From positions 7,620 through 71,619 of the forward strand of contig MENI01000073.1 of assembly GCA_001768195.1 (NCBI GenBank): a stretch of DNA of 64,000 nucleotides. The letters are read 5' to 3'. Source of the stretch: Bacteroidetes bacterium GWA2_40_15. Lineage in GTDB: Bacteria; Bacteroidota; Bacteroidia; Bacteroidales; VadinHA17. A program made the position numbers and the translations under genes. Under the pieces are notes generated by a model, which saw only the letters and a list, made by a program, of their open reading frames with translations, ran no database searches and was not told where the DNA came from. Shown in pieces: positions 26,789 to 31,679 of this stretch (position 1 is its first letter; each line of letters starts with the position of its first letter).

Positions 26789-27065
26789 ACTTGTATGGTT
26801 TTTAAATTATTTTTCCGTCAGATATTTTCGCTATTCAGATCAAAATCAATAACTTGAAGCATATGATCACTTCAAATCTCAATTATCAATATTACAAAAA
26901 AAAACTATTCCTTCAAAGTATAAAATAAAAGCAATTTTGAATCATTTTGCAGTAATTTTAACCTCTCTTAAAATTAGAAGTCCAAATATCTTGTATTGAC
27001 CCCCCATCCCCCAAGGGCATAGGCGTCTACTTAAGAATAGTATTGTAAATACAGAGATTAAAAAA

Positions 27066-27153
27066 GTTTCCCCTCCTTTTCAAGGAGGGGTGGCCGCAAC
27101 ACATAGATAGTTAATGTTTTACGAAAGGCTGGTTGCGGCCGGGGTGGTTGATT
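27066..27153 (+). repeat. Double-hairpin module, subtype 1
   Basis: Same layout as 5612-5698. Second stem is GGCCGCAAC...GTTGCGGCC. Confidence 0.85.
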
Positions 27154-27177
27154 GGTTGGTTTATCAGATCGATTCTT

Positions 27178-27294
27178 TTATTTTTTTGATTTTATCATTT
27201 CCCATAATGCTGCCTCAGCCGAAGTGGACCTGTTCCTGAGAGATGATCTGAAAGATTTAAGGCCCTTTCTGTTGAAGTGGGTTTTGTTTTTCAT
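27178..27294 (-). pseudogene. DUF559 N-terminal remnant (38 codons)
   Basis: MKNKTHFNRKGLKSFRSSLRNRSTSAEAALWEMIKSKK* matches the DUF559 N-terminal LR.N.T.AE..LW helix. The catalytic core is missing. Confidence 0.7.
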
Positions 27295-27321
27295 AGATAT
27301 AATGGTAAAAAGAAATGAATA

Positions 27322-27408
27322 AATCAATCACCCCGGCCGGGAAATGGACCTTGTAAAGATCAGATAATCAGCGGTCCCGGCCACCCCTCCTTGAAAAGGA
27401 GGGGAAAC
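27322..27408 (-). repeat. Double-hairpin module, subtype 2
   Basis: Same layout as 5937-6022. Inner end is GGTGATTGAT (one substitution). Confidence 0.85.
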
Positions 27409-27613
27409 TTTGTTTATTTCATCAATTCAACCACTCTTAAACTATTATGAACGAACTTAAATTAGATATTAAAAGCCGTTTGCCTTTATTGATCCTCCCT
27501 GTAAACCTTTTTCAGATTGCTTAAGTTAACGCCTATGCCCCTAGGGGGTCCCCATAACCATCGGGATAGGGGTGGAATTTAAAGAAATAATGTTTAATCA
27601 TATTTAATCATTT

Positions 27614-31050: not shown

Positions 31051-31245
31051 ATGATACTAATTATCGTTTAAAATACCGTTCTTAAATACAATAATCTTCC
31101 TTCATCTGTCCTCCTGAACTTCTTTGCCGTTTTGCCCCCCTGAAGGGGCATAACTGTCAAGCTAAGGAGTTATAAAATGGTTTTACAGGAAGGAACAATA
31201 AAGGCAAAAGGATTTTAATATTGATATTCAGTCCATTTATAACAT

Positions 31246-31331
31246 TTTCCCCTCCTTTTGAAGGAGGGGTGGCCGCAGCACAATGATAGTTATAATATTG
31301 CAAAGTCTGGTTGCGGCCGGGGTGGTTGATT
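31246..31331 (+). repeat. Double-hairpin module, subtype 1
   Basis: Same layout. Second stem GGCCGCAGC...GGTTGCGGCC with a G-T wobble position. Confidence 0.85.
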
Positions 31332-31376
31332 GGTTCATCAGATCGATTCTTTGTTTTCATTGATAACTTTACTTAT

Positions 31377-31527
31377 CTAACTTATTAAATATTCAGGTTG
31401 CTTGAATACAAATCTGTTTTCAAATCTTAATATAGTGAATCCAGAGTTCTTCAGGTATTTATCCCTGTTTCCATCTTCTGTATTATTTGGTATTCCCAGT
31501 GGGAATCTCCGTCAAGTTCAATTAAAT
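31377..31527 (-). pseudogene. DUF559 C-terminal remnant with a frameshift
   Basis: LIELDGDSHWEYQ... in one frame, then ...RDKYLKNSGFTILRFENRFVFKQPEYLIS* in the next frame. Confidence 0.7.
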
Positions 31528-31610
31528 CAACCACCCCGGCCGGGAAAAAACTCTGTAAACATCAGATAATCAATTATCCCAGCCACCCCTCCTTCAAAAG
31601 GAGGGGAAAC
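31526..31610 (-). repeat. Double-hairpin module, subtype 2
   Basis: Same layout. One stem substitution (GGCTGGGA instead of GGCCGGGA). Confidence 0.85.
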
Positions 31611-31679
31611 TTTTTCTAGTCTCCGCATTTACAATAGTACTCTTAGGATGACAGCTATACCTTCAGGGGGTGAAGGCTG

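What the first reader, a model, noticed from the sequence alone, without database searches (positions are those of the whole stretch)
27000..27548. Archetype of a five-copy family of ~0.55 kb nested-inverted-repeat elements built around DUF559 endonuclease gene debris
Seen: outer inverted termini are CCCCC..GGGCATAGGCGTCTACTTAAG (27001-27035) and CTTAAGTTAACGCCTATGCCC..GGGGG (27520-27548). Inside them, two 85-88 nt double-hairpin modules face each other (27066-27153 and 27322-27408). Each module is a CCCCTCC-loop-GGAGGGG hairpin, a GGCCG..CGGCC stem-loop, and the end CGGCCGGGGTGGTTGAT. Between the modules lies a 38-codon minus-strand ORF, MKNKTHFNRKGLKSFRSSLRNRSTSAEAALWEMIKSKK. The same parts recur at 5485-6076, 20189-20450, 31135-31670 and 54461-55054, always intergenic. 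Known: LR.N.T.AE..LW is the N-terminal helix of DUF559 (PF04480, Vsr-like PD-(D/E)XK nuclease) proteins. The cores of copies I, IV and V encode the matching C-terminal end (IELDG..H ... LGFTVLRFEN). Inference: these may be non-autonomous, decayed derivatives of a selfish DUF559-nuclease cassette with MITE-like termini. Alternatively they are a REP/BIME-like structured repeat that repeatedly captured that gene. No transposase, integrase or intact nuclease is in the window, so any mobilising activity is encoded elsewhere. I do not recognise a described element class with this architecture, but I cannot search.
Basis: partly seen in the sequence, partly recalled or inferred. Interest (0 to 1): 0.75.

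Follow-up and report, generated by a model that had tools for sequence, protein, structure and literature searches.

The report
Decayed IS231-type cassettes carrying DUF559
The five repeats are worn-out copies of a small non-autonomous transposon, common in uncultured Bacteroidales, that has IS231-type ends and carries a DUF559 nuclease gene between two mirrored hairpin modules; it is a new variant of a known kind of mobile element.

Summary
Five regions between long ORFs carry one repeat family: nine full 88-nt double-hairpin modules and one partial, outer inverted termini, and DUF559 gene debris.

Intact masters exist in other Bacteroidales genomes. There a 415-nt core between the modules encodes a 124-129 aa DUF559 protein under purifying selection (dN/dS about 0.1-0.3).

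The real termini are CATAGCCGTCAACYTAAG. They match the published end consensus of the IS231 subgroup of the IS4 family. They are 16-17/20 identical to IS231A, IS231F and two related insertion sequences. Non-palindromic 10-bp target-site duplications flank them.

Related genomes with the same gene order have an empty 151-153 nt spacer at the site of copy III.

So the family is a mobile insertion cassette (MIC/MITE) of the IS231 type. An IS4-family DDE transposase most likely moves it in trans, not DUF559. I did not find that transposase.

The function of the hairpin modules is unresolved. Their first hairpin looks like an outward-facing terminator.

DUF559 genes in cyanobacteria, Deinococcus, Sinorhizobium and Neisseria also sit between GC-rich hairpin repeats. 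A DUF559-specific selfish mechanism therefore remains possible.

The parts
27008..27017 (.). Copy III, left target-site duplication (CCCCCAAGGG)
   Evidence: Matches the right flank CCCCTAGGGG at 8/10 positions. Sharper copies elsewhere have 10/10 duplications.
27018..27035 (+). Copy III, left IS231-type terminal inverted repeat (CATAGGCGTCTACTTAAG)
   Evidence: Fits the consensus CAT-------AA--TAA.
27066..27153 (+). Copy III, A-type double-hairpin module, lying downstream of the gene remnant
   Evidence: Hairpin 1 is called terminator-like on the - strand at 27090-27070.
27181..27294 (-). Copy III, DUF559 N-terminal remnant (38 codons); the rest of the gene is deleted
   Evidence: About 80% identical to the N-termini of intact copies such as L087.
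27322..27408 (-). Copy III, B-type double-hairpin module, lying upstream of the gene (canonical order)
   Evidence: Terminator-like on the + strand at 27384-27404.
27409..27519 (-). Copy III, long arm: linker plus what looks like a degenerate extra module copy
   Evidence: Sequence comparison with the tandem modules of copy V and with long arms in L006, L061 and copy IV.
27520..27537 (-). Copy III, right terminal inverted repeat (reads CATAGGCGTTAACTTAAG on the - strand)
27538..27547 (.). Copy III, right target-site duplication (CCCCTAGGGG)
5498..6071 (+). Copy I. Left repeat is degenerate (5498-5512). A module 5612-5697 (+). DUF559 C-terminal remnant 5760-5891 (+). B module 5937-6024 (-). Right repeat 6054-6071. 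The core is inverted relative to the canonical order.
20198..20479 (+). Copy II, heavily damaged. Left repeat 20198-20217. An unrelated palindromic element at 20257-20408 occupies the hairpin-1 position. Module tail 20430-20446 (-). Degenerate right repeat 20466-20479.
31149..31659 (-). Copy IV, canonical order on the - strand. Repeats 31149-31166 and 31642-31659. A module 31246-31331 (+). Frameshifted DUF559 C-terminal remnants 31380-31522 (-). B-like module 31525-31610 (-). Duplication CCTGAAGGGG/CCTTCAGGGG (8/10).
54473..55043 (-). Copy V. Repeats 54473-54490 and 55026-55043. Two tandem B modules 54523-54608 and 54626-54711 (+). DUF559 C-terminal remnant 54718-54858 (-). A module 54898-54984 (-). 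Core inverted relative to the canonical order.

Best explanation
The five window repeats are old, internally deleted copies of a non-autonomous transposon family found in uncultured Bacteroidales.

The full-length element is about 0.7 kb. Its order is: IS231-type terminal inverted repeat (CATAGCCGTCAACYTAAG), short spacer, 88-nt double-hairpin module (usually type B), 45-nt leader, a 124-129 aa DUF559 (Vsr-like PD-(D/E)XK) gene, an inverted module (type A or C), a short or long spacer, and the second inverted repeat.

It inserts by cut-and-paste DDE transposition and duplicates 10 bp of a target of the form SSS-N4-SSS. The transposase is not on the element. By analogy with MIC231 and IS231, an IS231-subgroup IS4-family transposase encoded elsewhere moves it in trans.

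After insertion, copies decay. They suffer internal deletions, inversion of the core between the inverted modules, module duplication, nested insertions and erosion of the termini. The window shows this decayed state.

Shown here: the family, the master copies, the ends, the duplications, the empty sites and selection on the ORF. Inferred: which transposase moves it; that hairpin 1 acts as an outward-facing terminator insulating neighbours; and what DUF559 contributes.
For: - **Family size.** At least 98 module-bearing stretches in 32 species-level assemblies. All are labelled Bacteroidales, Bacteroidota or Rikenellaceae except one Spirochaetota-labelled contig. The scan was truncated.
- **Master copies.** Core lengths have a mode at 409-424 nt (12 loci). 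Ten of these hold intact DUF559 ORFs, with pairwise dN/dS of 0.08-0.32.
- **Abundance of the protein.** More than 2,800 90%-identity clusters of close homologues, mostly on short contigs.
- **Target-site duplications.** Perfect non-palindromic 10-bp direct repeats abut CATAG...CTATG in L020, L028, L041, L058, L061, L076 and L087, and 9/10 in seven more. At least 9/10 identity occurs in 18% of repeat pairs against 0.35% of cross-paired controls.
- **Ends.** They fit the published IS231-subgroup consensus CAT-------AA--TAA--- with 10-12 bp duplications. They are 16-17/20 identical to IS231F, IS231A, an Anoxybacillus IS4 and a C. perfringens IS read from public records. They resemble the ends of 80 metagenomic IS231-like elements.
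- **Definition of the class.** MICs are IS231-type repeats flanking coding sequences without a transposase, and are mobilisable in trans.
- **Empty sites.** The 323aa-dnaN spacer is 151-153 nt in three syntenic relatives. It is occupied in the window, L187, L188 and RA.bin116.
- **A non-coding derivative has spread.** The same ~186-nt core without DUF559 similarity recurs at different loci and in different assemblies.
- **Terminator-like hairpins.** Hairpin 1 is called terminator-like facing outward on both sides of copy III.
Against: - No cognate IS4/IS231-like transposase with these ends was found in the window, in about 0.8 Mb of module-bearing loci, or among the 80 metagenomic IS231-like loci. 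None of those loci carries modules.
- Every coding passenger seen is DUF559, always placed at the centre of symmetry between hairpin modules. That is unlike the varied passengers reported for MIC231.
- DUF559 genes in other phyla are also bracketed by hairpin repeats but lack IS231 ends. This suggests a DUF559-specific relationship that the simple passenger model does not explain.
- The 'CA region' reported next to the left repeat of MIC231 is not evident here.
Confidence: 0.78

Rival explanations
1. The DUF559 gene and its two inverted hairpin modules form a selfish unit of their own. The nuclease recognises or cuts the hairpin or palindromic repeats. The gene is then copied by break repair into the centre of other palindromic copies, a homing-like gene conversion into foldback MITEs. 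The IS231-type ends would be only a second, outer vehicle.
For: - The gene lies at the centre of symmetry of a long palindromic element.
- Minimal forms with 42-55-nt palindromic cores and no gene debris exist in L004, L008 and L086.
- DUF559 genes in Pseudanabaena, Picosynechococcus, Deinococcus, Sinorhizobium and Neisseria are also flanked by GC-rich hairpin inverted repeats, without IS231 ends.
- 'DUF559 domain-containing protein' is enriched (odds ratio 14.3) among predicted inversion targets.
- The Vsr/DUF559 clade contains a proven homing endonuclease, I-Bth0305I.
- The ORF is under purifying selection.
Against: - Most gene-less copies still hold N- or C-terminal gene fragments. They are deletion products, not pristine empty targets.
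- In Bacteroidales the module-gene unit was never seen without IS231-type ends.
- New genomic sites carry 10-bp duplications, which indicates transposition rather than homing.
- Six of 11 DUF559 loci from other phyla show no flanking inverted repeat above shuffled controls.
Confidence: 0.12
2. The modules are host-domesticated structured repeats of the REP/BIME or Correia type. They would act as terminators, RNA-stability elements or protein-binding sites and be kept by host selection. The DUF559 gene would be incidental.
For: - The copies lie between genes.
- Hairpin 1 is terminator-like facing outward.
- The stem-2 base is kept through compensatory changes: GC to CG in 104 versus 55 modules, GC to AT, and CG to TA.
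- Hairpin 1 is replaced by a different hairpin in L092.
- No Rfam family matches, so it would be an undescribed motif.
Against: - The 10-bp duplications and IS231 ends show the units arrive by transposition.
- Syntenic relatives do well with an empty 151-153 nt spacer.
- No RAYT-like gene was seen.
- Window copies are eroding (I and II have lost a terminus), which does not look like host selection.
- Covariation may reflect only two or three module lineages.
- Fold z-scores are modest.
Confidence: 0.07
3. The regions are ancient fixed intergenic spacers shared by descent, not mobile DNA.
For: The window and the distant relative RA.bin116 both carry a family member in the 323aa-dnaN spacer and downstream of the TatA-like ORF.
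Against: - Closer relatives have empty sites.
- The RA.bin116 copy belongs to a different subfamily (186-nt core), so it is probably an independent insertion.
- Target-site duplications are present.
- There are dozens of unrelated insertion loci.
Confidence: 0.01

Closest known systems
MIC231 / IS231 (mobile insertion cassettes of the IS231 subgroup, IS4 family; Bacillus cereus group)
   Same: - Terminal repeats of the CAT-------AA--TAA type, 16/20 identical to IS231A and IS231F.
- Duplication of about one helical turn (10 bp here; 10-12 published; 11-12 read from pBtoxis).
- G/C-triplet-flanked targets. An Anoxybacillus relative duplicated GGCTTTTGCCC.
- A passenger coding sequence between the repeats and no transposase.
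- Size of about 0.7 kb.
   Different: - Host is uncultured Bacteroidales rather than Bacillus.
- A single recurrent passenger (DUF559) rather than varied ones.
- The passenger is framed by two inverted 88-nt double-hairpin modules, making the whole element a long palindrome.
- An abundant series of MITE-like deletion derivatives.
- The 'CA region' is not evident.
- The cognate transposase has not been identified.
MITEs in general (for example Correia elements of Neisseria)
   Same: Short, multi-copy, located between genes, with terminal inverted repeats and target duplications, no transposase, and terminator-like hairpins (from my own knowledge of Correia elements, not checked here).
   Different: The master copy here encodes a conserved protein. 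The duplication is 10 bp rather than TA. The ends can be assigned to a specific IS subgroup.
REP/BIME and REPIN-RAYT systems
   Same: Structured GC-rich hairpin repeats between genes, with a small gene flanked by inverted copies of the repeat.
   Different: The flanked gene is a PD-(D/E)XK DUF559 nuclease, not a Y1 (RAYT) transposase. The element has IS4-type repeats and 10-bp duplications, which REPINs lack.
Vsr-fold homing endonucleases (I-Bth0305I, EDxHD family)
   Same: Same nuclease superfamily cluster (Vsr/DUF559/DUF2726). Small selfish-looking ORF with many degenerate copies.
   Different: Not located in an intron or intein. Insertion sites are unrelated and carry transposition-type duplications. 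No cleavage data exist.

Membership tests
IS4 family, IS231 subgroup ends (IS231/MIC231) | Terminal inverted repeats fitting CAT-------AA--TAA--- | tested here: met
   The consensus CATAGCCGTCAACTTAAG has CAT at positions 1-3, AA at 11-12 and TAA at 15-17. It is 16-17/20 identical to IS231F, IS231A, an Anoxybacillus IS4 and a C. perfringens IS, and resembles the ends of 80 metagenomic IS231-like loci.
IS4 family, IS231 subgroup ends (IS231/MIC231) | Direct target duplication of 10-12 bp | tested here: met
   10 bp. Seven perfect 10/10 and seven 9/10 cases. At least 9/10 in 18% of pairs against 0.35% of cross-paired controls.
IS4 family, IS231 subgroup ends (IS231/MIC231) | Insertion specificity (published for IS231A; the consensus GGG(N)5CCC is from my memory of Hallet 1994 and was not retrieved here) | tested here: inconclusive
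   The target logo is SSS-N4-SSS, for example CCCTnAAGGG. The Anoxybacillus relative duplicated GGCTTTTGCCC. This is similar in style, but the published consensus was not read with the tools.
Mobile insertion cassette (MIC) | Two IS-type inverted repeats flanking one or more coding sequences, no transposase gene, about 0.7-3 kb | tested here: met
   Full-length copies of about 0.67-0.72 kb hold only the DUF559 ORF. tblastn with IS231F finds nothing in the loci or the window.
Mobile insertion cassette (MIC) | Mobilised in trans by a cognate IS transposase present in the same genomes | tested here: inconclusive
   No cognate transposase was found in the window, in 98 module-bearing loci, or among 80 metagenomic IS231-like loci. 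The rest of these genomes could not be searched.
Mobile insertion cassette (MIC231 specifically) | Conserved 'CA region' next to the left repeat | tested here: inconclusive
   By eye, the alignment shows no run of Cs followed by As next to the repeat. The feature is described only in prose, so the comparison is loose.
DUF559 (PF04480) | Pfam PF04480 match at or above the gathering score | tested here: met
   Window fragments score 33.1 bits (IV) and 21.3 bits (V), above the 20.6 cutoff, and 19.4 (I) and 13.8 (III), below it. All 120 listed close homologues of the intact ORF carry PF04480. PDB 3HRL matches at E = 5e-21.
REP/REPIN-RAYT | Repeat-flanked Y1 (RAYT) transposase; no target duplication | tested here: not met
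   The flanked gene is DUF559, and 10-bp duplications are present.
Homing endonuclease gene | Resides in, and cleaves, one specific cognate target such as an intron, an intein or a defined allele | not testable with these tools
   The insertion loci are unrelated and carry duplications, which argues against classical homing. Cleavage specificity needs biochemistry.
Rfam RNA families | Match at the gathering score | tested here: not met
   No match in the whole window.

The most novel reading that the evidence does not exclude
DUF559 (YcjD-like Vsr-fold) nucleases may be the engines of a widespread, undescribed class of palindrome-associated selfish cassettes. The gene would live at the centre of GC-rich hairpin or foldback repeats in several phyla (Bacteroidales, cyanobacteria, Deinococcus, alpha- and beta-proteobacteria). 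It would spread or maintain itself by nuclease-induced recombination at those hairpins. In Bacteroidales it would additionally ride on an IS231-type MITE.
Probability: 0.15. Interest if true: 0.8.

Novelty: new variant of a known kind. Interest (0 to 1): 0.45.

Why it matters
It resolves a puzzling 'nested inverted repeat plus nuclease debris' pattern into a concrete mechanism that can be tested: IS231-type cut-and-paste of a passenger cassette.

It extends IS231-type cassettes from the Bacillus cereus group to abundant environmental Bacteroidales, where the family is large. At least 32 species-level assemblies carry it, and the protein has thousands of variants.

It gives the large orphan family DUF559 a reproducible genomic context: a conserved small nuclease framed by mirrored hairpins, seen in five of eleven DUF559 loci examined from other phyla. 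That context suggests experiments on what DUF559 recognises.

On the practical side, these elements break short-read assemblies and produce spurious small ORFs, so recognising them improves annotation of Bacteroidales genomes assembled from metagenomes.

Tried and rejected
- **Rfam.** A gathering-threshold search of the whole window found nothing.
- **Mis-set terminus.** I first took GGGCATAG as the terminus and saw no duplication. Moving the boundary to CATAG revealed the 10-bp duplications.
- **A conclusion withdrawn.** I first read the shared occupancy of the dnaN spacer in the window and RA.bin116 as orthologous conservation, with modules under selection. I withdrew this after finding empty sites in closer relatives, and because the RA.bin116 copy has a different core type.
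- **Transposase inside enlarged family members.** None is cognate.
  - L006 holds an IS1380-family transposase.
  - L030 holds an ORF that looks like a group II intron reverse transcriptase.
  - L066 holds a 511-aa ORF that looks like an IS1182-type transposase.
  - L035 and L012 hold what appear to be ordinary genes between two separate copies.
  - L092 has only rearranged arms.
- **tblastn with IS231F** against the loci and the window found nothing.
- **Metagenome scan with an IS231 alignment.** It returned 80 IS231-like loci, all low-GC, without modules and without exactly matching ends.
- **Empty-site search among the module-bearing loci themselves** found none.
- **Plasmid collection.** No close DUF559 homologue and no Bacteroidales element.
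- **Viral contigs.** No module match.
- **pBtoxis.** Accession AL731825 is not held, and the first 50 kb of the RefSeq record contain no IS231.
- **PADLOC.** Only a weak DpdF hit, not pursued.
Full report
**1. The observation**

The outer inverted arms are 27008-27035 and 27520-27547 (28 nt, 86% complementary). The inner arms are 27054-27096/27378-27420 (43 nt, 93%) and 27136-27162/27313-27339.

BLASTN of the unit against the window gives matches only in five regions: 5.5-6.1 kb, 20.2-20.45 kb, 27.0-27.55 kb, 31.1-31.7 kb and 54.45-55.05 kb. E-values go down to 1e-38. All five lie between long ORFs.

Motif searches find nine complete modules of about 88 nt and one partial module. Each module has four parts:
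- hairpin 1, CCCCTCC-loop-GGAGGGG;
- a second stem, GGCCG...CGGCC, of 7-8 bp;
- a loop of about 34 nt;
- the tail GGGGTGGTTGAT.

Predicted folds agree, at -33 to -34 kcal/mol. The z-scores against shuffles are only -1.8 to -3.5 on this strand.

Modules fall into subtypes: A (GGCCGCA..TGCGGCC), B (GGCCGGGA..TCCCGGCC) and C (GGCCGGA..). Across 162 modules the stem is kept by compensatory changes. These may represent only a few lineages.

Translations of the cores hit PF04480: copy IV 33.1 bits, copy V 21.3 bits, copy I 19.4 bits and the copy III N-terminus 13.8 bits, against a cutoff of 20.6. Rfam has no match in the window. The window comes from a groundwater metagenome.

**2. The family outside the window, and master copies**

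They come from 32 assemblies. All are labelled Bacteroidales, Bacteroidota or Rikenellaceae except one Spirochaetota-labelled contig, whose flanks match a Rikenellaceae locus.

Distances between facing modules show a mode at 409-424 nt in 12 loci. Ten of these hold an intact 124-129 aa ORF that is clearly the full version of the window fragments. For example, L087 begins MKNKNLFNRKVLKSFRASLRNRSTSAEAALWEMLKSKK, against MKNKTHFNRKGLKSFRSSLRNRSTSAEAALWEMIKSKK in the window.

The aligned masters give the canonical order: terminus, short spacer, B module, 45-nt leader, ORF, inverted A or C module, short or long spacer, terminus.

Evidence on the protein:
- Pairwise dN/dS among intact ORFs is 0.08-0.32.
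- It has more than 2,800 close 90%-identity clusters in public data, mostly on contigs of about 1 kb.
- It matches the solved DUF559 protein 3HRL at E = 5e-21.
- It matches the YcjD-type NCBIfam model, but below its cutoff.

Shorter cores are a deletion series that keeps N- or C-terminal gene pieces. A distinct ~186-nt AT-rich core with no DUF559 similarity also recurs at different loci and in different assemblies. That shows a non-coding derivative has itself spread.

The B module lies upstream of the gene in 31 of 40 cores with a DUF559 match. Window copies I and V belong to the minority (5 of 40) with A upstream and B downstream, that is, the core inverted between the modules. Recombination between inverted repeats would produce this.

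**3. Termini, duplications and what they identify**

Listing all terminus matches with their outer flanks showed variable bases just outside CATAG.

Setting the boundary at CATAGCCGTCAAC revealed direct repeats abutting both ends. Examples are GGGACAAGGG (L020), CCCCGAAGGG (L028), CCTTTGAAGG (L041), CCCCCTGCCC (L058), GGATTTAGGG (L061), CCGTTTACCC (L076) and GGTCACGCCC (L087). Seven more are 9/10. Several are non-palindromic, so they are true duplications and not extensions of the inverted repeat.

In 66 terminus pairs, 18% have at least 9/10 identity, against 0.35% when left and right flanks of different elements are paired. This is despite some mispairings in the automated set. The target looks like SSS-N4-SSS.

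Window copies have worn duplications (III 8/10, IV 8/10, V 7/10). Copies I and II have each lost a good terminus. This fits old age.

The review 'IS4 family goes genomic' gives, for the IS231 subgroup, ends 'CAT-------AA--TAA---', duplications of 10-12 bp, insertion specificity and passenger DNA. The consensus found here fits every specified position.

I checked this against real records:
- IS231F on pBtoxis has CATGCCCATCAACTTAAGAA with 11-12 bp duplications.
- IS231A has the same repeat.
- An Anoxybacillus IS4 has CATAGCCATCAAGTTAAGAA, 17/20 identical to the consensus here, and duplicated GGCTTTTGCCC.
- A C. perfringens relative has CATGACCGTCAACCTAAGAA.
- Most of the 80 IS231-like transposase loci fetched from metagenomes carry ends of the same pattern.

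A review defines MICs as IS-type inverted repeats flanking coding sequences without a transposase. It gives MIC231 as the main example and reports trans-mobilisation by IS231. On structure, the Bacteroidales family is therefore an IS231-type MIC, and its deletion products are MITEs.

**4. Mobility at a window site**

Homologues of the 323-aa protein next to copy III were located on contigs with the same gene order: ABC2 permease, 571 aa, 323 aa, dnaN, RNase T.

The 323aa-dnaN spacer is 825 nt in the window. It is 153, 153 and 151 nt in L186, L189 and L190. Those short spacers align with the window's spacer outside the insertion.

L187 and L188 keep remnants of the same long arm in the same orientation. 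In L188 most of the element has been replaced by a second palindromic element.

By concatenated protein identity, the empty L186 is the sister of the occupied L187. The most distant genome, RA.bin116, carries a family member of a different core type. Occupancy is therefore patchy. It needs at least one loss or allele replacement, plus an independent gain. This rules out 'ancient fixed spacer'.

**5. What moves it, and what the parts do**

A 10-bp staggered-cut duplication with IS231-type ends points to a DDE transposase of the IS4 family acting in trans. That step is inferred. No such gene is in the window or in about 0.8 Mb of family loci. The metagenomic IS231-like loci are low-GC and lack modules.

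Large ORFs found inside enlarged family members are nested, unrelated insertions. They are an IS1380-family transposase and, judged only from their sequences, a group II intron reverse transcriptase and an IS1182-like transposase.

Hairpin 1 followed by AAACTTTTT is called terminator-like facing outward on both sides of copy III. My working inference is that the modules insulate neighbouring genes from transcription that leaves the element, and give the DUF559 mRNA a stable 3' end.

By eye, the conserved leader (..GGTTGAT-N17-TACCTTTAT..ATG) resembles a Bacteroidetes -33/-7 promoter. This rests on my own knowledge of that consensus and was not tested.

The contribution of DUF559 is unknown. 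Purifying selection shows that the protein matters to the element or to the host.

**6. A wider pattern noticed on the way**

DUF559 genes on replicons from other phyla are also framed by GC-rich hairpin repeats:
- Pseudanabaena: arms of 40 nt at 100% and 35 nt at 97%, each side being a double hairpin built on CCCCCAATTCTGGGGG.
- Picosynechococcus.
- Deinococcus: CCCTCTCCC-GCAA-GGGGAGAGGG on both sides.
- Sinorhizobium: 20/20.
- Neisseria: 29 nt at 79%.

The other six of the eleven loci examined show nothing above shuffled controls. The three cyanobacterial loci checked have no IS231 end signature.

A published screen lists 'DUF559 domain-containing protein' among annotations enriched in predicted inversion targets, with an odds ratio of 14.3. 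The Vsr/DUF559 cluster includes the homing endonuclease I-Bth0305I.

This keeps open a more novel reading, in which DUF559 has a specific relationship with palindromic repeats. I give it about 15%. It rests on a small, unsystematic sample. In Bacteroidales, most gene-less copies are plainly deletion products rather than virgin targets.

**7. Verdict**

The class is known. It is an IS231-type mobile insertion cassette. The likely engine is a DDE transposase and not the DUF559 nuclease.

What is new:
- the host clade;
- the single conserved DUF559 passenger;
- the mirrored double-hairpin modules.

I rate it a new variant of a known kind, of moderate interest.

Noticed in passing
window 20257-20408 (inside copy II); also L188 3513-3651, L037 852-962, L056 118-230: A second, unrelated palindromic MITE-like family. 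Its ends are GGGGCTGTTGAAAAAGTC...GACTTTTTCAACAGCTCC and its core is a CGCAGAGGGCGCAAAGG-type hairpin. In copy II it sits exactly where hairpin 1 should be. In relative L188 it occupies the same dnaN spacer as copy III.
   Followed up: partly
L192 477-1203 (Pseudanabaena plasmid), L191 510-1164 (Picosynechococcus plasmid), L198 (Deinococcus), L199 (Sinorhizobium), L195 (Neisseria): DUF559 genes in other phyla are also bracketed by GC-rich hairpin inverted repeats, without IS231-type ends. This holds for 5 of 11 loci examined. A published screen lists DUF559 among annotations enriched in predicted inversion targets.
   Followed up: partly
window 5440-5488 and 6149-6217: Short tandem repeats flank copy I: units of about 9-10 nt (GGCTGTAGAG-like) on the left and about 8 nt (CCTGTTGC / CACCTCA-like) on the right. 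Similar short tandem arrays flank family members in L012, L019, L082 and L084.
   Followed up: no
window 6080-6117 and 54434-54459: Extra GC-rich hairpins lie just outside the element ends: CTCCCGC..GCGGGA plus GGCTCTCCCGGAGGGGAGC, and GGCCAACCGCCAGCTGGCGGATGGCC. Related hairpins (CCCCCCTTGAGGGGGG, CTCCCCTCCC.GGAGGGG) abut many family members. They may create the G/C-triplet targets the element prefers.
   Followed up: no
window 20588-21718 versus L067/L090 (JAKLDT010000040.1): The 376-aa gene is present in the window but absent at the syntenic position in RA.bin116. There only about 690 nt, holding one family member, separate the TatA-like ORF from the 732-aa gene.
   Followed up: no
window 19774-19962 (-): A 63-aa ORF ([31 protein letters not shown]...) whose sequence looks TatA-like lies inside the 'intergenic' region that holds copy II. 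No family search was run on it.
   Followed up: no
L006 595-2091, L030 2773-4218, L066 266-1801: Family members serve as landing pads for other mobile DNA. One holds an IS1380-family transposase (confirmed by HMM). Two others hold ORFs that look like a group II intron reverse transcriptase and an IS1182-type transposase, judged by sequence only.
   Followed up: partly
L034 5044-6131: A tandem arrangement: a short family member, a repeat of about 150 nt ending in CCCCCCAACCCCCCTAAAGGGGGG, then a full-length member followed by the same 150-nt repeat again.
   Followed up: no
L123/L124 427-567, L136 2995-3149, L162 1173-1325: Metagenomic contigs carrying IS231-like transposases also carry short pairs of IS231-type ends with no ORF. 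This suggests IS231-type MITEs are common outside Bacillus.
   Followed up: no
window 26789-27017 and 27548-27613 versus L186, L189, L190: Compared with the empty sites, the window spacer has about 140 nt of extra sequence beyond the cassette. This includes CCACCCCTATCCCGATGGTTATGGGGACCCCC next to the insertion point. An earlier insertion may have supplied the target.
   Followed up: no
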